A DNA stretch of 18,211 nucleotides from Promethearchaeota archaeon (lineage in GTDB: Archaea > Asgardarchaeota > Lokiarchaeia > Sigyniarchaeales > SOKP01), in assembly GCA_048940645.1 (NCBI GenBank), contig JBHLOI010000065.1:1-18211 (forward strand), in the 5' to 3' direction. How positions within the stretch are numbered: position 1 is the first letter of the stretch; each line of letters begins with the position of its first letter. The position numbers and the translations under genes were made by a program. Shown here one piece after another: positions 392-16,425 of this stretch. A model generated the notes under the pieces. That model was not told where the DNA came from. It saw only the letters and a program-made list of their open reading frames with translations, and did no database searches.

Positions 392-2758
392 ATGAAATGC
401 TTATTCTGTGATTCCAATAGGATAGAATATACATGTGAAAGATGCAAATCGAGTTTTTGCATAAACCATATGGCAACAACAGAGAGTTGGGTATGTAAGA
501 AACATAACCATGTCTATTCAAAAGCTAGTGCTACCGAAAAAAGCTATAGATGCACAATTGTTGAAAATAGTAAATGTCCAGAATGCAACGCTCTTTTAAG
601 ATTAGAAAGATTATCTTCTGGTCAATATTATTTAGAATGTACAAATTCCAAATGTGGATGGAACTCATATTTAAAAACCCCAGGCTTATTCTTTCCAACA
701 AAAGAACAGTTAGCTAGAGAAGCCAGTAAGTATAATTTAATAAGAGGATATAGATTAGCTATATGCCGAAGAGGTTTGAAACACATTATTGGTAAAGATG
801 TGTGTCCTAATTGCTTTTTAGAGTTATTAAAAAGGTCTCATATAACAAATTTTTCAACAATTACTAATGCTTTTAATCTTTCAGCTCAACAAATGGTAAA
901 ATTAATCAATAAATACATTGATGAGGAACGAATTTATGGAATAATTGATCAAAAAAATCAAATGTTCTATTATATATCTCCTGAAATGAGGGAGAAAATA
1001 TTATCCAAAATTCAAAATGAAGGAACTATTAAAGTTGCCGATTTGGCTCTTATGTTGGATATGAGTTCTGAAATTGCTTTAAAAGTAATATATAAATTAA
1101 TAAGCCAATTTCAAATTAGGGGTTCTTTCTCACTGAATAAACAATTTTATTATACTCAGAAATATATAATGGATAATTTGATTAAAGAAGTTAATGAAAA
1201 AGGACGTGTTTCACTAAATGATTTAGCTAAAATCTTTAATATTCCTATTGATCTAATAAAATCTTTTTGTGTCAATCTGATGCGAACGGGTGCAATTAAT
1301 GCGTTTTTTGCTGATCGTGGAAATGAAGTAATTAATGCTGAACAGATTTATAAAGAAATTAAATCATATTCTAAAGAAAAAGGATTATTTGAGCTTTCAA
1401 AACTCGCAACTGATTTGAAAATTGCTGTGGAATTAGCTAGAAAGAATCTACATGAACTTATTAAAACTGGAAAAGTTAAGGGAATATTTACTCAAAGAAG
1501 AGAATTCATGACAAATAAACACTTAGAAAGTAAAATAAGAGAATTTGCAAAAGCATACAGAACAATGCCTTTACGAGAATTATCTAATAGATTGGGGGTT
1601 ACAGAATCAAGCATTGAAGAAATTTTAGCACAACTAATAGGAAGAGGAGATATTGATGGGTATATTGATATGCATAAGCGTATTTTTGTAGCATATAGCG
1701 TTCCAAGAACACAAGCTCCAGATGAGATAATACAAAAAGCTACAAAAACTGTTTCCAAAGGAGAGATAGAAGTAGTGAGAGATTATGATTTTGAAGGTGG
1801 CCAACTACACTTTAAAGTAGCTGTCAGAAATAAAAGTTCCATGGCTGTAAATAATGTAAAAGTTATCTTAGATGTTCCCTCAAGCTATAAGATAAAACAA
1901 CCTTTAATTACAATCCCAGTAATCGAAAGTAAGAATTCTAGGGGCGTTGACTTTTATCTCGAACCTAAGCAATGTGGATTATCTAATATTGGCGGCACTG
2001 TTATATATAAAGATGCAACGGGTGAGCAACACACAATTCATATCAGAAAAAAAGAAGTACAAATAAAGTGCCCTTTAGTTGTTTCATGTCTAGCGACAAT
2101 AGAGGATGTACAGATAGCAATTTCTGATCTCCCAAATGATGCTCGAGCTTTCCTAATAGCTGATTTAGATCCTCGATTAGCCTATCGAGCTGCAGTTAGG
2201 ACATTAAAGCATTTTGATGTGAGCACAGTCACTTCTCATGAAGGAGCAGATGCAAAAGGAAATTACGAATCTGAAAGTTGGCATTGCAGCGAGGCAAAAA
2301 ATACAGGTGGGCGAATTATTACTAGATTATATGTCTCAGAAGCAAGTCAATCTCTTGAAGTTCGAGTTTGGTGTGGAAATGCTGGTCAATTGACGGGATT
2401 CTTAGCAAGAATAATAGAATTACTGTTTGAGGAGATTAATATAATCAGAAAGATCAAATCTGAAGAAAGAGAAAAAACTATAGATGTTATGGCAATTACT
2501 CAGAATCTGGCTGAGATTTCGGACTATTGTATGCTTAGATGGAAGGCTCAGAACATTAGAAATAAGTTACATGATACTTTCGTTCGACTCAGAAAGATTA
2601 TTGGCGATAATGAGGCTGTTTTAGGACGTCTTGAATTTTGGTTAACTCAACTCAATAAATATGAGAAAGATGATAAAATCAGTGATTCGGATGCTGATAA
2701 GCTGGTAGAAGATGTTGAAAAATTCAAGAGTGTTATTGCAAGAGCTATAAAATTATAG
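392..2758 (+). CDS. Multidomain protein: N-terminal Zn fingers, 5 tandem winged-helix (DDRGK1/UFL1/PCI-like) repeats, Ig-like appendage/platform-like domain, C-terminal helices
   Basis: Cys/His clusters in aa 3-141. ~60-aa periodic WH wing motifs (GIID183, GSFS244, AFFA304, GIFT364, GYID423). The last repeat (YRTMPLRELSNRLGVTESSIEEILAQLIGRGDIDGYID) is a typical PCI-type WH. Alternating beta pattern at aa ~457-560. Confidence 0.8.
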   Translation: MKCLFCDSNRIEYTCERCKSSFCINHMATTESWVCKKHNHVYSKASATEKSYRCTIVENSKCPECNALLRLERLSSGQYYLECTNSKCGWNSYLKTPGLFFPTKEQLAREASKYNLIRGYRLAICRRGLKHIIGKDVCPNCFLELLKRSHITNFSTITNAFNLSAQQMVKLINKYIDEERIYGIIDQKNQMFYYISPEMREKILSKIQNEGTIKVADLALMLDMSSEIALKVIYKLISQFQIRGSFSLNKQFYYTQKYIMDNLIKEVNEKGRVSLNDLAKIFNIPIDLIKSFCVNLMRTGAINAFFADRGNEVINAEQIYKEIKSYSKEKGLFELSKLATDLKIAVELARKNLHELIKTGKVKGIFTQRREFMTNKHLESKIREFAKAYRTMPLRELSNRLGVTESSIEEILAQLIGRGDIDGYIDMHKRIFVAYSVPRTQAPDEIIQKATKTVSKGEIEVVRDYDFEGGQLHFKVAVRNKSSMAVNNVKVILDVPSSYKIKQPLITIPVIESKNSRGVDFYLEPKQCGLSNIGGTVIYKDATGEQHTIHIRKKEVQIKCPLVVSCLATIEDVQIAISDLPNDARAFLIADLDPRLAYRAAVRTLKHFDVSTVTSHEGADAKGNYESESWHCSEAKNTGGRIITRLYVSEASQSLEVRVWCGNAGQLTGFLARIIELLFEEINIIRKIKSEEREKTIDVMAITQNLAEISDYCMLRWKAQNIRNKLHDTFVRLRKIIGDNEAVLGRLEFWLTQLNKYEKDDKISDSDADKLVEDVEKFKSVIARAIKL

Positions 2759-2850: not shown

Positions 2851-3273
2851 GTGTTTACTATCCCAATTATATCGATTAGTATAAATGAACAACTTCGAAA
2901 ATTTATTAACAAATTAGTATCAAAGAATCGATATGAAAACAAATCTAAATTAATCAGAGATGCATTATTACGATTAATGTCGACAATAGATGTTTCGAGT
3001 TTTGAAACTGTTAGTGATATTACACCCTCAAGTAAAAATGTAGTAGGAAATTTAATTATCGTCGCTCCACTCGATTCAAACGTTCAAAGGAAATTAAATA
3101 AGATTGAATCAGAATATAATAATCAAATTGTAAGTAAAAACCAGCATTTTCAAGGCGAAAATAGTATAAATTTTCTTATATTTGAAGGAGAAATTCAAAG
3201 TTTTCAAAATTTTGTTGTTGAAATTAATGGTATTAAGGAAATAAGGAACTTTCGATATTTAATAATCAACTAA
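2851..3273 (+). CDS. CopG/NikR-like ribbon-helix-helix regulator with C-terminal ACT-like domain
   Basis: PIISISINEQL...YENKSKLIRDAL is an RHH signature, and the C-terminal domain has NikR-like length. NikR Ni ligands are mostly absent. True start may be ATC at 2860. Confidence 0.8.
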   Translation: MFTIPIISISINEQLRKFINKLVSKNRYENKSKLIRDALLRLMSTIDVSSFETVSDITPSSKNVVGNLIIVAPLDSNVQRKLNKIESEYNNQIVSKNQHFQGENSINFLIFEGEIQSFQNFVVEINGIKEIRNFRYLIIN

Positions 3274-4529: not shown

Positions 4530-4892
4530 GTGAAATTTATAGGAAAAAATAAATATGGAAAGGGATACCAAAAAAAGGATATCGGTTCAAAAGGAAATAG
4601 TAGTGGTGCACCCATTCATGGAGGAAAAATCAAAGCAAGCCATATTTTAGTTGAAAAATTTACTAAAGCTCAAGAAATCTATGAAGATTTACAAGCAGGT
4701 GAAAATTTCGAAAATTTAGCAAAAACCTATTCGATTTGCCCTAGCAAAAAGAGGGGAGGAAATTTAGGAGAATTCTCGAAAGGGGATATGGTTCCTGAAT
4801 TTTGGAATGCGAGTATTAAGCTAAAAATAGGAGCAATTTCACAACCTGTTAAATCACGATTTGGATATCATATAATTAAAAGAATAAGTTAG
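4530..4892 (+). CDS. ppiC: Parvulin-type peptidyl-prolyl cis-trans isomerase with basic Gly/Lys N-terminal extension
   Basis: ASHILV, SICPS, GGNLG, MVPEF, S-x-PVKSRFGYHII motifs. True start may be ATA at 4539. Confidence 0.92.
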   Translation: MKFIGKNKYGKGYQKKDIGSKGNSSGAPIHGGKIKASHILVEKFTKAQEIYEDLQAGENFENLAKTYSICPSKKRGGNLGEFSKGDMVPEFWNASIKLKIGAISQPVKSRFGYHIIKRIS

Positions 4893-7839: not shown

Positions 7840-9750
7840 CTATTTAAGTAAAATGGTTTCTCGATTTTTTGGAGATTTAGTAGCTTTCCTTAACTTTTTA
7901 TGGATCATTGTAGATAAACTCACACATTTACTCTCTTCTCCATGATTAGTAATTACAACTTTAGGTCGTGGCTGAATACGTCGTAGAAATTGGGAAATCT
8001 GGCTTCTTGATGAATGTCCACTAAATCCTTCAAGCGTAAAGACATTAATATTCAACTTTACAAGCTGCGTTCTGCCTTTAGCATCGACATATTGAAATTC
8101 TCTGAATCCTTTTTGGATACGGGAACCTAAGGTACCATTAACTTGGTATGATACGAAAATTAATGAGTTATTTTTATCTTCTGCTAATGACCTAAGATAT
8201 TGCACTGACGGCCCACCAATTAACATACCGCTCGTAGCTAAAATAATACATGGCCCTCCTGTAATAACATCCAATCTCTCATCTGGAGTACTTATTGTAG
8301 TGAAAAATTCGCTTAGAAAGGGATTTTTACCTTGATGAAGTATTTTTTCTCTCAAATCAGAACTAAGAAAATCAGGATGAGCTGTATGAACTGCTGTAGC
8401 CTCAGCAATTAATCCATCTAAGAATATTGGGACTCTATCAATTAAACCTTTTGAAATAAATTCTTCAAGTATAATTATCAATTCCTGAGCTCGCCCTACA
8501 GCTAAGACCGGAATTAAGACCTTTCCTCCACGCTTAAGTGTCGAGTTTAAAATTTGTCGGAGCTCTCTCTCCGAATCTTGGCGACTGGGGATACGATCTT
8601 GCGGACCGCCATATGTTGCTTCGAGAAGTAGGGCTTCGACTCGGGGAAATTTAACAGCGGCCTTTTCGAGCAGCCTAGTCTTCTGGAACTTGAAATCTCC
8701 GGTGTAGATAAAATTAAATCCACCCTTTCCGAAATGTAAATGAATTATTGAAGAACCTAATATATGTCCAGAATTATGTAGCGTAAGTTTTATATCTGGT
8801 GCTATATCAGTAACTTTTCCCCATGAAAGAGGAACCGTATGCAGTACCGTTGTTTTAACGTCTCTTCTTGAATAAGGGGGTGGTATACCTTCTTTTTCAC
8901 AAATTTGAACAAAATCTAATTGCAACATAGTAGATAAATTGCGAGTTGGTAAAGTACAATATACAGGTCCCCTATAACCATATTTATAAAGAAACGGAAC
9001 CATACCGCAATGATCTAGATGTGCATGAGAGATAATAACTGCATCAAGATCTCGTATTGAAAATTCAGGTACATCGAAATAAGGAAATTTATCATTATTG
9101 TTTCCTACATTTAAACCCACATCAAGTAATATATTACTATCCCTTGTTTGCATTAAAATACAGGATCTTCCTACTTCCCGAAACCCACCTAGAGCAGTCA
9201 ATCTAATATCCAAATCTTTAAAAAGTATTGGACGATGAATTCTTTTTCCAATTCTTAATAGGATATCTTTTTGACTTTGTCGCTCTCTCGTCAACATCCC
9301 TCTAATAAGGCCGATTGTTTTAGATGTTAATGGTGGTGTTCTTATTGTTTTAGGTTGCCAAAAAGTATTTGCTCTTATTTCCTTCAAATTAACTCCTTTT
9401 TTCCCTATTACAAGACCAGGTTTACCAGATTCAATGATTACTTCCCCACGAGTATGATCAAATTCAATATCTGAAATTTCTGCTTCTTCACCTACTAAAC
9501 TTCTAATATATTCTTCAGTTTCTGAAGGTTCCTTACGTTTTTCGACATTCCATCTAAAAACTACCCTTTTTCTCATAGTTTTAGCTAAATCTTTCAAGAT
9601 GTCAGAACTTTCAACCACATCAAGATTAGAATTTTCAGAATATACTGCTATTTCAGGACCTTCAAACTCAATTTTCTGTACTTCTATATCAGGAGGTAGA
9701 TTTTGTATAATTTCACTTTTAATTCTTTCTAATTCTTGTTCGGAACTCAT
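7840..9750 (-). CDS. fttA: Archaeal beta-CASP ribonuclease aCPSF1 / transcription termination factor FttA
   Basis: N-terminal KH domains (IEFEGPEIAVY, KPGLVIGKKG), LGGFREVGRS, SHAHLDH, SGHILGS, YTGD, EATYG, GFSGHS and NHGE motifs; 636 aa. Confidence 0.97.
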   Translation of the reverse strand: MSSEQELERIKSEIIQNLPPDIEVQKIEFEGPEIAVYSENSNLDVVESSDILKDLAKTMRKRVVFRWNVEKRKEPSETEEYIRSLVGEEAEISDIEFDHTRGEVIIESGKPGLVIGKKGVNLKEIRANTFWQPKTIRTPPLTSKTIGLIRGMLTRERQSQKDILLRIGKRIHRPILFKDLDIRLTALGGFREVGRSCILMQTRDSNILLDVGLNVGNNNDKFPYFDVPEFSIRDLDAVIISHAHLDHCGMVPFLYKYGYRGPVYCTLPTRNLSTMLQLDFVQICEKEGIPPPYSRRDVKTTVLHTVPLSWGKVTDIAPDIKLTLHNSGHILGSSIIHLHFGKGGFNFIYTGDFKFQKTRLLEKAAVKFPRVEALLLEATYGGPQDRIPSRQDSERELRQILNSTLKRGGKVLIPVLAVGRAQELIIILEEFISKGLIDRVPIFLDGLIAEATAVHTAHPDFLSSDLREKILHQGKNPFLSEFFTTISTPDERLDVITGGPCIILATSGMLIGGPSVQYLRSLAEDKNNSLIFVSYQVNGTLGSRIQKGFREFQYVDAKGRTQLVKLNINVFTLEGFSGHSSRSQISQFLRRIQPRPKVVITNHGEESKCVSLSTMIHKKLRKATKSPKNRETILLK

Positions 9751-10988: not shown

Positions 10989-13178
10989 ATGCCACGCCGT
11001 AAGGAAATAACAGATATACTAAGAATGATGGAACAAACAGAGAATATAAGAAATTTTGGATTAGTTGGGCATATAGACCACGGTAAAACTACCCTTTCTG
11101 ATTCATTATTAAGTGAAGCTGGTTTTTTATCGCCAGATTTAGCTGGTGAAGCTAGAGCACTTGATTATCTAGAAGAAGAACAACAACGTGGAATTACTAT
11201 GAAATCTGCCAATATTTCTTTGTATTATGAAAAGACATTGGAAGACCATAAACCCTTTCTTATTAATTTAGTTGACACCCCAGGACACTTAGATTTTAGT
11301 GGTAAAGTTACACGAGCTTTAAGGCTAGTTGACGGAGTTGTGGTTGTAGTTGACGCAGTTGAAGAAATTATCACTCAATCTGAAACAGTAATTAAACAAG
11401 CGTTACAAGAACGAGTTAAACCGATCTTGTATATAAATAAAGTGGATCGTCTTATTCGAGAATTAAAATTGACTGACGAGGAGATAAGAAAGAAATATAC
11501 TAGAATTATTAATGATTTTAATAAACTTATTAAAAGATATGCCGATAAACCATTCAAAAAAGAATGGCAAGTATCCCCCGCTAATGGAAATGTCGCTTTT
11601 GGATCCGCACTTCATAAATGGGGCTTTACGTTAAAAATTTTGGAAAAAAGTGAACTTAAATTCAGTGATATAAAAGCTAGATATAAAAAAGAGACTTATT
11701 CAAAAGAAACATATGCAGATTTGGTTATATATCTTCCAATTCATAAAGCCATTTTAGAAATGGTCGTAGATCATCTTCCCAATCCTAAAGAGGCACAGAA
11801 ATACAGAATCGAAAAAATCTGGGATGGAGATATCAATTCAGAAATAGGACACGCAATGAGAGAATGTAATCCTCTTGGCCCATTAGTGATTTGTATGAGT
11901 AAAGTACAAGTTGATAAACAAAATCTTATAGCTACAGGAAGAATTTTCTCAGGGATTTGCTCAAAAAGAGAAGAAATATTTTTATTACGTGAAAATAATT
12001 ATGAAGTGATTCAACGTACAGCTATTTTTATGGGTCAAAGAAGAGAACAGGTCGAAAAAGTACCTGTTGGAAATATAGTGGCAATAGAAGGTCTTAAAAG
12101 GCTAAAAAGTGGCGAAACTATTGTTGAAAGTAATTACATAGATAAGATGGTTCCATTTGAAGATGTAAAATATGTAACTACCCCAGTTGTTACAGTCTCT
12201 ATTGAACCTGAATATTTGAGGGATATGGATGAAATGAGAAAATTAATTGAAAATCTAATGATTGAAGACCCAAATTTAAGATTTGAAATTAATGAGGAAA
12301 ACGGTGAATTCTTATTATCGGGTATGGGACCATTACATCTTGAAGTAACAGCAAAGGAAATAGAAAAAAGGGGTATAAAGGTTTCAATATCGGAACCAAG
12401 GGCAGTTTTCAAGGAATCATGTCGATCTAATTCATCATTAATTACTGTGAATTCACCAAATAATCAGAGTTCCCTTTCAATTAAGATTGAGAGATTGGAT
12501 CGCAAAACAGCTAGTTTTTTACAATCTGTAAATATTAATTCATTTAAGCCCTTAAGTGTTTTAAAAGAAATTTTGGAAAAGAAGACAAACTTAAGGGAAT
12601 CTGATATTGAACACTTTTGGAAATTTGATAGTGATCAAAATCTCCTAATTTATAATGGAATTGATAATTTAAATGAGTTTTTTAAGAATATTATTATTGA
12701 AATTTTCAAAAAAATTCAGCTAAACGGACCACTCTGTGGTGAAAAACTTACTGAACTTAAAATTAGCGTTGAAAATTTGAAGATCGATAATTTAAATGAG
12801 GAGAATGCATTTACAGAATTATCTACTATGTTTTATGAAGCAATAAAAAAAGGACTTAACGAAGCTGAATTAATTTTACTCGAACCATTATACCATTGCA
12901 TTATCCAACTGCCTCCAGATTATATTAAAAATGTATTAACTTTACTCACGAAATATTCAGCTAAAATTAAAAATATAAATCAGGAGAAAGAATATCAAGC
13001 GATAATCGAAATCCTAATCCCTGTTAGGAATTCAATAAAATTTGCTGAAGATATACGATCTACCACCTCAGGAAGAGCTTTCTGGCAAAATGAATTTTAT
13101 GCCTTTTTGGAAGTTCCGCACCATGAGGCAAATTCAATAATTAATAACCTGCGATTTATAAAAGGACTTTCTTGGTAA
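10989..13178 (+). CDS. Elongation factor 2 paralog (aEF-2p type, lacks the diphthamide His motif)
   Basis: Intact G motifs GHIDHGKTT, RGIT, DTPGH, NKVD and GSAL, plus GMGPLHLE, GPLC and LLEP. The domain IV loop reads KIDNLNEENAF in place of HEDxxHRG. Confidence 0.92.
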   Translation: MPRRKEITDILRMMEQTENIRNFGLVGHIDHGKTTLSDSLLSEAGFLSPDLAGEARALDYLEEEQQRGITMKSANISLYYEKTLEDHKPFLINLVDTPGHLDFSGKVTRALRLVDGVVVVVDAVEEIITQSETVIKQALQERVKPILYINKVDRLIRELKLTDEEIRKKYTRIINDFNKLIKRYADKPFKKEWQVSPANGNVAFGSALHKWGFTLKILEKSELKFSDIKARYKKETYSKETYADLVIYLPIHKAILEMVVDHLPNPKEAQKYRIEKIWDGDINSEIGHAMRECNPLGPLVICMSKVQVDKQNLIATGRIFSGICSKREEIFLLRENNYEVIQRTAIFMGQRREQVEKVPVGNIVAIEGLKRLKSGETIVESNYIDKMVPFEDVKYVTTPVVTVSIEPEYLRDMDEMRKLIENLMIEDPNLRFEINEENGEFLLSGMGPLHLEVTAKEIEKRGIKVSISEPRAVFKESCRSNSSLITVNSPNNQSSLSIKIERLDRKTASFLQSVNINSFKPLSVLKEILEKKTNLRESDIEHFWKFDSDQNLLIYNGIDNLNEFFKNIIIEIFKKIQLNGPLCGEKLTELKISVENLKIDNLNEENAFTELSTMFYEAIKKGLNEAELILLEPLYHCIIQLPPDYIKNVLTLLTKYSAKIKNINQEKEYQAIIEILIPVRNSIKFAEDIRSTTSGRAFWQNEFYAFLEVPHHEANSIINNLRFIKGLSW

Positions 13179-14683: not shown

Positions 14684-15535
14684 ATGTGGGAATTTATCAT
14701 TATTGCAATTTTACAAGGATTATTTGAATGGCTTCCTATATCATCTTCAGGTCAAGTAATGATTCTTTCTTTGGGATTTCTCAATATTTTAAAAGCAGAA
14801 GCATTCAGTCTTTCAATATGGCTGCATTTAGGAACTACATTTGCAGTTATTATTAAGTTTAGAAAAGATTATATTAACATTGTCAAATCTTTTATACCTA
14901 ATAAGTTTAATAGTAATAAATTGGACATTAAAAAGAGAAACTGGTTAATTTTTGGTACGATTGGCACTGCTATTACTGCTTTACCATTGTATTTTTTATT
15001 TAAGATCATTGTTATTGGAGAATTTACAGAAATCCAGGGAGATATTCTAACTCTAATAATTTCTGCATTACTCATTATAACCGGTATTGTTTTACTTAAA
15101 ATAAAAAAGATATACGGAGCGAAAATAATAGATAATACACAAGATAAGGATATAATGAAAGATTCCTTTATAGCTGGACTATTTCAAGGTTGCGCTATTC
15201 TCCCAGGAATTTCTCGTTCTGGTTTTACTGTATCTACTATTCTCTTTGAAAAATATGAGTCTGAACATGCTTTAAAATTAGGTTTTTTGATGTCAGTTCC
15301 TGTTGCAATTGCATCTATTATTGTTGATATTATATTTGGGAGTTCTGTTTTCGGAATCTTAGATCCTCTTACTATAGTTATTATAACAATAGTTAGCTTT
15401 GTAATTGGATATCTTTCTATGGAATTATTACTAAGAGTTTCAAAAAAAATTCAATTTGGATATTTCTGCATATTATATGGAATTATATCATGGTTAGTTA
15501 TCTTTCCAATCCTTATTGCCACAGGTATAAGTTAA
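14684..15535 (+). CDS. uppP: Undecaprenyl(polyprenyl)-diphosphate phosphatase, BacA/UppP family
   Basis: QGLFEWLPISSSG, LHLGT and PGISRSG motifs; multiple TM helices. Confidence 0.92.
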   Translation: MWEFIIIAILQGLFEWLPISSSGQVMILSLGFLNILKAEAFSLSIWLHLGTTFAVIIKFRKDYINIVKSFIPNKFNSNKLDIKKRNWLIFGTIGTAITALPLYFLFKIIVIGEFTEIQGDILTLIISALLIITGIVLLKIKKIYGAKIIDNTQDKDIMKDSFIAGLFQGCAILPGISRSGFTVSTILFEKYESEHALKLGFLMSVPVAIASIIVDIIFGSSVFGILDPLTIVIITIVSFVIGYLSMELLLRVSKKIQFGYFCILYGIISWLVIFPILIATGIS

Positions 15536-16425
15536 ATAGTTGAGATATAGTCTTTAAGATAATTTACAATTATATCATCTATATTTAGAATACCCTTAAA
15601 TCCTGGAAAATCATTTAAGTCAACTAAATAATATTTTCGCCTATTTAAAGGTTTTATTAGATCAAATCCGAATATCCTAAGATTCAATTGTTTTGCTAAA
15701 ATTTTTGCTAATTTTTTGACACTTTCCGTTATTTTAAATTCTTGTCTATCTATCTCATCAACATTAATATCAGCGGGATTTTCACGTAGAAAGATATAAA
15801 TTGGGTTCTCTCTTTTAATTCCAAAAACTTTATCACCTACAACATAAACCTTTCTTTCTATTCCATCACATTCTATAAATTCTTGAATATATACATCATA
15901 ATATGTGAAAGCATTATATCTATTGCAGAATTTATCGATTTCGTTTATTTTTTTTGCTAAAAAATTGAATCTGTTATACTTATCATGCTGATAATGACTT
16001 TTTATAACAATTGGTAATTTGGGGGAGGCCCATTTCTTAAATTTTGATATATTTGATACATTATAGTTCCAAGATTGGGGCAGAGAAAAATATCTATTAA
16101 TATATGGATTTTGATTAAAAACTTTCCTCAGTGCATAATCGAGAGCTATTTTATTTTTACACATTAAAACGGTATCCACATTATGAAGGGCTGGAATGTT
16201 ATTAATCTTAGCATAATGAAGAAGGTCGATGGAACAATCATTTCTAACTTTCACAATAATAAGAGCTGCTTCTTCAAAAGAATTCGGCATATTTGAAAGA
16301 TTAAAGAATTCATTTTTAGGATCATGAGTAATAAGCTTAATATTTTGAATTTTCTCTAATTTATCTATAACCTTTTTGATGACTTCATGATCTTGTCTAG
16401 CTGAGAATATTATCTTTTTTTGCAT
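15532..16425 (-). CDS. ATP-grasp kinase, inositol-tris/tetrakisphosphate kinase (ITPK1)-like
   Basis: PIVIK, QEFI, KVYVVG...R, LRIFGFDLI and VDLNDFPGFKG follow the ITPK1 pattern (KVFVVG, LFGxD, IDINxFPGY) better than RimK (R-x-x-VVG, EVNxxPG). Confidence 0.72.
   Translation of the reverse strand: MQKKIIFSARQDHEVIKKVIDKLEKIQNIKLITHDPKNEFFNLSNMPNSFEEAALIIVKVRNDCSIDLLHYAKINNIPALHNVDTVLMCKNKIALDYALRKVFNQNPYINRYFSLPQSWNYNVSNISKFKKWASPKLPIVIKSHYQHDKYNRFNFLAKKINEIDKFCNRYNAFTYYDVYIQEFIECDGIERKVYVVGDKVFGIKRENPIYIFLRENPADINVDEIDRQEFKITESVKKLAKILAKQLNLRIFGFDLIKPLNRRKYYLVDLNDFPGFKGILNIDDIIVNYLKDYISTI

What the first reader, a model, noticed from the sequence alone, without database searches (positions are those of the whole stretch)
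815..1693. Natural single-chain DDRGK1-UFL1-like winged-helix backbone (possible UFM1 E3 ligase ancestor) in an archaeon
Seen: five ~60-aa tandem WH repeats. By recall of the human sequences, aa 178-218 (EERIYGIIDQKNQMFYYISPEMREKILSKIQNEGTIKVADLA) aligns with the DDRGK1/UFBP1 signature (EGTITGVIDDRGKFIYITPEE...RGRVSIAELA). Directly after it, aa 247-290 (SLNKQFYYTQKYIMDNLIKEVNEKGRVSLNDLAKIFNIPIDLIK) aligns with the UFL1 N-terminus (TLDGKEYIT...[22 protein letters not shown]). Established: in eukaryotes the DDRGK1 C-terminal and UFL1 N-terminal partial WHs complement each other to form one WH backbone that clamps the 60S ribosome. Inference: this protein has the unsplit order, suggesting the two eukaryotic subunits arose by fission of such a gene. 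The PCI-like fifth repeat links it to proteasome-lid/CSN/eIF3 WHs.
Basis: partly seen in the sequence, partly recalled or inferred. Interest (0 to 1): 0.85.

Follow-up and report, generated by a model that had tools for sequence, protein, structure and literature searches.

The report
Unsplit UFL1/DDRGK1-like winged-helix arm, Asgard
An Asgard archaeon builds in one protein chain the row of folded units that eukaryotes assemble from two separate proteins of their UFM1-tagging enzyme, which suggests those two proteins are halves of an older single one; the archaeal protein was already catalogued and looks like a membrane-trafficking adaptor rather than a tagging enzyme.

Summary
Observation confirmed. 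Window 815-1693 is aa 142-434 of a 788-aa, single-copy Lokiarchaeia protein: Zn module, five tandem winged helices (WH), adaptin-type ear, Vps28-like C-terminal bundle. The array is homologous to DDRGK1(WH+half WH)+UFL1(half WH+WH1-3) in that order: best PDB match by sequence and fold is the engineered DDRGK1-UFL1 chimera 8B9X (Z 16.4, 3.4 A, 233 aa; SelB control 13 A). The colinear register wins in 50/50 (related) orthologues. Limits: signal sits mainly in repeats 1 and 5; the split unit resembles repeats 3/4 more than repeat 2; trees do not place this family as the eukaryotes' sister; similar arrays occur across Asgard and in Bathyarchaeia. The E2-binding helix, DDRGK arginine motif, membrane anchor, WH4-5 and UFL1 C-terminus are missing, and the ear is the most conserved part. 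So: an intact relative of the split eukaryotic backbone, probably an ESCRT/trafficking adaptor, not a UFM1 ligase or proven ancestor. The architecture (Liu 2020/21) and the Asgard origin of UFL1 and DDRGK1 (Picchianti 2023) are published; I found no paper stating the single-chain/fission reading. The scan noted this family on other genomes before.

The parts
392..2758 (+). Whole gene, 788 aa: Zn module - 5 WH - linker - adaptin-type ear - Vps28-CTD-like bundle
   Evidence: ~789-aa homologues at 57-96% identity in Promethearchaeota/Lokiarchaeia
392..814 (+). N-terminal Cys/His-rich module (aa 1-141), 14 invariant plus 2 near-invariant Cys/His in seven divergent orthologues, enough for about four Zn sites (inferred); no Pfam family
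809..985 (+). WH repeat 1 (aa 140-198), counterpart of DDRGK1 WH1'; loop reads IDQKNQ, not DDRGK
   Evidence: profile score 62.7 vs next 42.6; best repeat for DDRGK WH in 49/50 orthologues; groups with DDRGK WH 94/74; 8OHD_C 216-304 aligns to model 1-86, 1.9 A
986..1165 (+). WH repeat 2 (aa 199-258), intact; sits at the position of the composite pWH'/pWH that eukaryotes form from two chains
   Evidence: positional; sequence alone prefers repeats 3 and 4 for the two halves
1166..1345 (+). WH repeat 3 (aa 259-318), counterpart of UFL1 WH1
   Evidence: best repeat for UFL1 WH1 in 40/50 orthologues
1346..1522 (+). WH repeat 4 (aa 319-377), counterpart of UFL1 WH2
   Evidence: best repeat for UFL1 WH2 in 35/50; 8B9X superposition ends here
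1523..1699 (+). WH repeat 5 (aa 378-436), PCI-type WH; positional counterpart of UFL1 WH3
   Evidence: Pfam PCI 42.5 bits; 0.9-1.0 A over 63-64 aa to CSN4/lid WH; groups with UFL1 WH3 82/79
1700..1765 (+). Flexible linker (aa 437-458)
   Evidence: pLDDT < 50 at aa 436-456
1766..2452 (+). Adaptin/COPI-type appendage: beta-sandwich (aa 459-558) plus alpha/beta platform (aa 563-687); most conserved part of the protein
   Evidence: Foldseek 1E42 E 4e-10; platform vs AP4-beta appendage 2MJ7 Z 13.5, 2.8 A, 118 aa; 52-69% identity in deep orthologues
2456..2752 (+). Four-helix bundle like the Vps28 C-terminal domain (aa 689-787)
   Evidence: Pfam VPS28 model 87-179, 26.8 bits, cut-off 24.5; 2J9V Z 13.2, 3.0 A, 98 of 99 aa

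Best explanation
The stretch is a five-repeat winged-helix arm, a mobile archaeal module, here inside a soluble Lokiarchaeia scaffold. SHOWN: it is homologous to, and colinear with, the DDRGK1 C-terminus plus the first 230 residues of UFL1, and is predicted to pack the same way. INFERRED (about 0.75): because tandem arrays arise by duplicating whole units, the unit that eukaryotes assemble from two chains was once one chain, so DDRGK1 and UFL1 are the two pieces of an archaeal array of this kind (by fission or by duplication and reciprocal trimming), later given a membrane anchor/UFIM, an E2-binding helix, two more WH and a C-terminal domain. This protein is a slow-evolving cousin, not the demonstrated ancestor. 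INFERRED (about 0.55): in the archaeon the arm is a rigid protein-binding spacer that holds a Zn module at one end and, through a flexible linker, an adaptin ear (peptide-motif binding) and a Vps28-like bundle (ESCRT docking) at the other, i.e. an adaptor for ubiquitin/ESCRT-linked membrane sorting, without UFM1 ligase activity.
For: Sequence and fold top hit 8B9X (Z 16.4, 3.4 A, 233 aa; the other four-WH array SelB gives 13.0 A). DDRGK1 chain aligns to model 1-86 and UFL1 29-247 to model 88-297. A joined eukaryote profile aligns 4-290 of 298 to aa 141-427 at 102.5 bits, the best of all prokaryotic arrays tested; all 11 joined eukaryote rows start in register against the Loki profile. Shift 0 best in 50/50 orthologues, mean 83 vs at most 33 bits, and 49/50 with repeat 1 left out. 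Repeat tree pairs both ends. Ear and Vps28 folds; ear most conserved, repeats 1-3 least, 18-47%. Genome has ubiquitin-like proteins, E2/UEV, Vps22 and Snf7. Same array is fused to many other domains, often as the cytosolic tail of single-pass membrane proteins. Liu et al. predicted ubiquitin-dependent membrane remodelling for this domain mix.
Against: The 50 orthologues are kin, mostly above 65% identical; in three deep orthologues the native repeat order ranks only 11th-17th of 120. The halves of the split unit match repeat 3 (11.3 vs -0.3 bits) and repeat 4 (8.3 vs 4.0) better than repeat 2; middle repeats are unresolved in the tree; UFL1 25-163 of 8C0D superposes one repeat out of register at 2.5 A, so packing alone does not fix the register. 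No gene-neighbourhood link to ubiquitin or ESCRT genes. The characterised Loki Vps28 (Lokiarch_10170) is a different, short protein. No function was measured.
Confidence: 0.6

Rival explanations
1. The protein is a working ancestor-like scaffold E3: repeats 1-2 bind a charged E2 (ubiquitin or Ufm1-like) and repeats 2-5 dock on the 50S subunit, as UREL does on 60S.
For: In UREL, UFC1 also touches DDRGK1 WH1' and pWH', and UFL1 WH1/WH2 touch eL13; those units have counterparts here. Ufm1 homologues are reported in nine Asgard clades (PMC12962969). Genome has E1, E2, JAB and ubiquitin-like genes. Single copy, near-universal in the class.
Against: UFL1 alpha1 (needed for E2 binding), DDRGK Arg265, UFIM, exit-tunnel helix, WH4-5 (main uL1 contact) and the UFL1 CTD are absent. 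Repeats 1-3 are the least conserved part and the arm is near neutral in charge. No UFC1, CDK5RAP3 or UFSP match in the genome (89.6% complete, searches without positive control).
Confidence: 0.12
2. The eukaryotic pair came from a different archaeal array (a membrane-anchored or 6-8-repeat one, or the short Heimdallarchaeia-type one); this family only scores best because it evolves slowly.
For: Cassette tree is a star; eukaryotes are not sister to this family, whose stem and branches are short. AU test rejects neither Euk+Loki (p 0.39) nor Euk+P0138 group (p 0.26). Repeats as DDRGK-like as repeat 1 occur in other arrays (30.2, 27.8, 32.8 vs 30.9 bits). Arrays behind a transmembrane helix, the DDRGK1 topology, exist (P0137, P0138, P0153, P0149). 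Eukaryotes have seven WH.
Against: This family gives the four best whole-array scores and a full five-repeat span; both end repeats pair in the tree. It is compatible with the best explanation, which claims cousinhood only.
Confidence: 0.5
3. The colinearity is an artefact: any array of two or more homologous repeats aligns with a pair split in mid-repeat, and DDRGK1 and UFL1 arose separately from the same repeat family.
For: All repeats are mutually homologous (24-51 between Loki repeats); Pfam DDRGK scores repeat 2-3 as high as repeat 1-2 in several orthologues; the split unit has no position-specific signal.
Against: Four of five eukaryotic units pick their positional counterpart; native order ranks 1, 2, 1, 11, 12, 17 of 120 in six orthologues; two complementary half-domains are hard to explain without a shared intact ancestor (inference).
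Confidence: 0.17
4. The archaeal gene is a secondary fusion of DDRGK1- and UFL1-like genes obtained from eukaryotes, or eukaryotic contamination.
For: Highest similarity to eukaryotic proteins among solved structures.
Against: Archaeal neighbours and conserved synteny; present in 49/54 genomes of the family and in sister families; eukaryotes form their own clade 100/100 with this family outside; related intact arrays in Hel-, Odin-, Sif- and Bathyarchaeia.
Confidence: 0.02

Closest known systems
Asgard fusion of E3 UFM1-ligase-1 domain + adaptin/COPI C-terminal domains + Vps28/Vps23 (Liu et al., bioRxiv 10.1101/2020.10.19.343400, Fig. 5a text)
   Same: All three named domains are found here in one chain; Asgard host; function predicted as ubiquitin-dependent membrane remodelling.
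   Different: The text read does not mention DDRGK, the repeat register or fission; the figure itself could not be seen.
Asgard homologues of UFL1 and DDRGK1 (Picchianti et al. 2023, PMC10183829, Appendix Fig S1B,C)
   Same: [quoted passage not shown]
   Different: Treats them in two separate trees; the text read does not say that both hits lie side by side in one protein.
Human UREL backbone, DDRGK1/UFBP1-UFL1 (PDB 8B9X chimera, 8C0D, 8OHD; Makhlouf et al. 2024, PMC10937380)
   Same: Order WH1', composite, WH1, WH2, WH3; 3.4 A over four WH; 19-20% identity.
   Different: One chain, five WH not seven; no alpha1 helix, DDRGK motif, UFIM, transmembrane anchor, WH4-5 or CTD; carries Zn module, ear and Vps28-like bundle instead.
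PCI-domain WH (CSN4, proteasome lid, eIF3)
   Same: Repeat 5 superposes at 0.9-1.0 A over 63-64 aa, 23-27% identity; Pfam PCI above cut-off.
   Different: No helical-repeat subdomain in front of the WH (another WH sits there); no sign of a PCI ring.
Adaptin beta/alpha, COPI gamma/beta appendages; yeast Vps28 C-terminal domain
   Same: Sandwich-plus-platform order and folds; four-helix bundle at 3.0 A over 98 aa.
   Different: 8-16% identity; relative orientation of sandwich and platform differs in the model (12-14 A over both); no adaptin trunk, no Vps28 N-terminal headpiece match.

Membership tests
UFM1 E3 ligase (UFL1-DDRGK1, UREL) | Tandem WH backbone in the order WH1' - pWH'/pWH - WH1 - WH2 - WH3 | tested here: met
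UFM1 E3 ligase (UFL1-DDRGK1, UREL) | Seven WH, with WH4-WH5 binding uL1 | tested here: not met
   five WH in the model; WH4/WH5 profiles average at most 3.1 bits on any repeat
UFM1 E3 ligase (UFL1-DDRGK1, UREL) | UFL1 N-terminal helix alpha1 that recruits UFC1 | tested here: not met
   UFL1 profiles begin at position 29-32; that place is taken by the covalently joined first half of repeat 2
UFM1 E3 ligase (UFL1-DDRGK1, UREL) | DDRGK loop with catalytic-assisting Arg265 | tested here: not met
   loop is IDQKNQ, IDTKNQ, IDEQNK, LDDNND in orthologues
UFM1 E3 ligase (UFL1-DDRGK1, UREL) | DDRGK1 membrane anchor and long exit-tunnel helix | tested here: not met
   max 19-aa hydropathy 1.47; Zn module precedes repeat 1
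UFM1 E3 ligase (UFL1-DDRGK1, UREL) | UFL1 C-terminal domain that fills the tRNA sites | tested here: not met
   full-length UFL1 profile covers only 32-231 of 755; C-terminus folds as ear plus Vps28-like bundle
UFM1 E3 ligase (UFL1-DDRGK1, UREL) | Cognate UFM1, UFC1, CDK5RAP3, UFSP in the genome | tested here: inconclusive
   no Pfam match, but genome 89.6% complete and Pfam Ufm1 finds 0/251 Asgard genomes although homologues are reported
UFM1 E3 ligase (UFL1-DDRGK1, UREL) | E3 activity and large-subunit binding | not testable with these tools
   needs biochemistry
Asgard UFL1-adaptin-Vps28 fusion (Liu et al.) | E3 UFM1-ligase-1 domain | tested here: met
   Pfam 69.8 bits, cut-off 23.2
Asgard UFL1-adaptin-Vps28 fusion (Liu et al.) | Adaptin/COPI C-terminal domains | tested here: met
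Asgard UFL1-adaptin-Vps28 fusion (Liu et al.) | Vps28-like domain | tested here: met
PCI proteins (lid/CSN/eIF3) | PCI-type WH subdomain | tested here: met
   repeat 5 (42.5 bits) and repeat 1 (32.4 bits)
PCI proteins (lid/CSN/eIF3) | Helical-repeat subdomain N-terminal to the WH | tested here: not met
   the model shows another WH before repeat 5 and Zn fingers before repeat 1
ESCRT-I Vps28 | N-terminal headpiece (steadiness box) in addition to the C-terminal bundle | tested here: inconclusive
   Pfam VPS28 matches only model positions 87-179 of 188; headpiece not searched separately

The most novel reading that the evidence does not exclude
DDRGK1 and UFL1 are the two pieces of one archaeal five-WH array, cut in the middle of repeat 2 during eukaryogenesis, and this Lokiarchaeia family keeps the closest intact copy, so its binding partners reveal the UFM1-independent ancestral job of the ligase backbone (possibly already an E2- or ribosome-binding arm).
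Probability: 0.35. Interest if true: 0.7.

Novelty: new member of a known kind. Interest (0 to 1): 0.45.

Why it matters
UFL1 and DDRGK1 only fold and work together because each supplies half of one domain. An intact archaeal array in the same order gives a simple origin for that odd arrangement and a concrete protein in which to test the proposed UFM1-independent ancestral function. The protein family itself and its Asgard origin are already published, so the gain is the register analysis and the fission reading, with its limits.

Tried and rejected
Literature: no held paper with UFL1+DDRGK1+'gene fission', UFL1+Lokiarchae*, or UFL1+UFBP1+fusion+'partial winged'+evolution; the Nature version of Liu et al. 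and its supplements were not held, so the asCOG number quoted by an earlier scan note is unverified. Complex prediction of repeats 1-3 with the genome's ubiquitin-operon E2: no answer (0.29, mark 0.32), not used as evidence. Search for natural eukaryotic DDRGK1-UFL1 fusions: three long DDRGK proteins, none with a UFL1 domain (weak); no UFL1 in 80 DDRGK1 loci, and all 79 DDRGK frames end within 92 residues of the motif. Pfam Ufm1 is too insensitive for Asgard. Gene neighbourhood gave no functional clue. AN1 identity of the Zn module not shown (no Pfam hit; PDB E 1.6). Claim that this protein is the only Vps28 of the host rejected as unsafe: Pfam finds only it but the characterised Loki Vps28 is a separate short protein. 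Eukaryotic rows in the joined profile and cassette tree pair DDRGK1 and UFL1 from different species, and several other archaeal arrays were cut by eye, which limits those trees. Human sequences were not typed in; eukaryotic profiles come.

Full report
Observation. The coordinates fall in frame within ORF 392-2758 (+), 788 aa, and cover aa 142-434. Both quoted peptides are present. Pfam places DDRGK (model 100-180) on aa 138-219 and E3_UFM1_ligase (model 29-235) directly after it on aa 232-435, with PCI strongest on aa 375-434. The best solved-structure sequence match is 8B9X, a laboratory chimera of DDRGK1 and UFL1, aligned through the junction (E 2.2e-10). A template-free AlphaFold model of aa 139-437 shows five regular WH units (pLDDT 93.1).

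Host and distribution. Homologues of about 789 aa are labelled mostly Promethearchaeota/Lokiarchaeia. The gene is single copy here and found in 49 of 54 genomes of the family and in the sister families of the class; more distant arrays occur in other Asgard families. A whole-library search returned arrays of 3-8 repeats in many contexts: behind extracellular domains and a transmembrane helix, fused to the same ear, to ABC ATPases, or alone. Named members come from Hel-, Odin-, Sif-, Asgardarchaeia and Bathyarchaeia. The array is therefore a mobile archaeal module.

The rest of the protein. Aa 1-141 hold 16 conserved Cys/His. After a disordered linker come a beta-sandwich and an alpha/beta platform matching adaptin and COPI appendages (1E42 E 4e-10; 2MJ7 Z 13.5) and a four-helix bundle matching yeast Vps28-CTD (2J9V Z 13.2, 3.0 A, 98 aa; Pfam 26.8 bits). 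In five deep orthologues the ear keeps 52-69% identity, repeat 5 45-57%, repeats 1-3 only 18-47%.

Is the colinearity real? Because all repeats are homologous, any array would align to a pair split in mid-repeat, so the register was tested. Profiles were built from 30 eukaryotic DDRGK1 and 24 UFL1 sequences. Profile-profile scores single out repeat 1 for the DDRGK WH (62.7 vs 42.6 next). Per orthologue, shift 0 is best in 50/50 (mean 83 bits vs at most 33), and 49/50 without repeat 1; DDRGK WH picks R1 in 49, UFL1 WH1 R3 in 40, WH2 R4 in 35, WH3 R5 in 33. A joined eukaryotic profile spans aa 141-427 at 102.5 bits, the best of all prokaryotic arrays tested, with orthologues at 36-80 bits in the same register; in the reverse direction all 11 joined rows start in register. 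A repeat tree pairs R1 with DDRGK WH (94/74) and R5 with UFL1 WH3 (82/79), neither starred, and leaves the middle open. Structurally, 8B9X is the top hit of 48,161 chains (Z 16.4, 3.4 A, 233 aa, model 1-238), against 13.0 A for the four-WH array of SelB; DDRGK1 216-304 falls on model 1-86 and UFL1 29-247 on model 88-297.

Limits. The orthologues are kin. In repeat-shuffling controls the native order ranks 1, 2, 1, 11, 12 and 17 of 120 in six orthologues. The composite unit prefers R3 in 42/50, and its halves match R3a and R4b better than R2, so the cut site is inferred from position, not from sequence. One UFL1 crystal chain superposes a repeat out of register at 2.5 A. The cassette tree is a star: eukaryotes are monophyletic (100/100) but not sister to this family, which has short branches; AU tests reject neither this family (p 0.39) nor another Asgard group (p 0.26) as sister.

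Function. In the human ligase, E2 binding needs UFL1 alpha1, catalysis is helped by DDRGK Arg265, UFM1 is held by the UFIM, and 60S binding rests mainly on WH4-5 with CDK5RAP3, the UFL1 CTD and the DDRGK1 helix; WH1-2 add three hydrogen bonds to eL13 (PMC10937380). None of the first group is present. No UFM1, UFC1, CDK5RAP3 or UFSP match was found, but the Ufm1 search is insensitive for Asgard (homologues reported in PMC12962969). The genome has ubiquitin-like, E1, E2, JAB, Vps22 and Snf7 genes elsewhere; neighbours here are unrelated. The most likely job is an adaptor: Zn module and ear as binding heads, WH arm as rigid spacer or docking surface, Vps28-like bundle as ESCRT link. Every functional step is inferred from domain identity.

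Prior knowledge. Liu et al. describe many Asgard proteins fusing Vps28/Vps23, adaptin/COPI C-terminal domains and E3 UFM1-ligase 1 (bioRxiv 10.1101/2020.10.19.343400). [quoted passage not shown] Hatano et al. used 'Asgard archaeal UFM1' WH sequences as an outgroup (PMC9192718). The ESM Atlas names the cluster after DDRGK, E3 UFM1 ligase and PCI. I found no held paper that states the single-chain order or fission. Earlier scan notes describe the same family in other genomes and a four-WH Heimdall protein with a similar verdict.

Verdict. Observation confirmed, interpretation partly supported. Homology and colinearity about 0.9; origin of the eukaryotic pair from one intact archaeal array about 0.75; this family as the closest relative about 0.4; ligase or ribosome-clamp function about 0.12. 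Known kind of protein with a useful, apparently unstated evolutionary reading: interest 0.45.

Noticed in passing
window 15532-16425 (-): ATP-grasp protein whose best Pfam match is inositol 1,3,4-trisphosphate 5/6-kinase (51.9 bits, cut-off 23), a eukaryote-like enzyme family.
   Followed up: no
window 10989-13178 (+): EF-2/EF-G-family GTPase of 729 aa with a divergent domain IV region; from memory Asgard archaea carry a second EF-2 paralogue lacking the diphthamide site, not checked here.
   Followed up: no
window 7840-9750 (-), 4530-4892 (+), 2851-3273 (+): KH/beta-CASP ribonuclease (aCPSF1-like by eye), parvulin PPIase and an RHH/NikR-like regulator; the last two keep their place next to the gene in 53 and 68 of 82 related loci.
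   Followed up: partly
L243 8001-10412 (Helarchaeota, P0134): A 5WH-ear-Vps28-like relative without the Zn module starts one base after a 6711-aa ORF on the same strand, as if it were the detached cytosolic tail of a giant surface protein.
   Followed up: no
P0137, P0138, P0153, P0170 (L214 2764-6561 -): Asgard proteins with large N-terminal (likely extracellular) regions, a transmembrane helix and then a WH array, three of them ending in the same ear: receptor-like layout with the DDRGK1 topology.
   Followed up: partly
L203 3381-4136 (-), L208 3000-3770 (-), L221 2009-2815 (+): Soluble 252-269-aa proteins made almost only of WH repeats in Asgard family f6, matched by both Pfam families; weaker and less clearly in register than the window's protein.
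   Followed up: partly
P0146, P0177: The same five-repeat cassette fused to an ABC-type ATPase domain (by eye).
   Followed up: no
L246 3078-8433 (G000:C80); G000:C60 95262-99000: Host ubiquitin cluster (JAB, E2, E1, three ubiquitin-like frames, one with an N-terminal hydrophobic segment) and ESCRT cluster (Snf7, Vps4-like, Vps22).
   Followed up: partly
control genome Methanosarcina acetivorans: Pfam DDRGK rings above its cut-off in this control genome; the gene was not examined.
   Followed up: no
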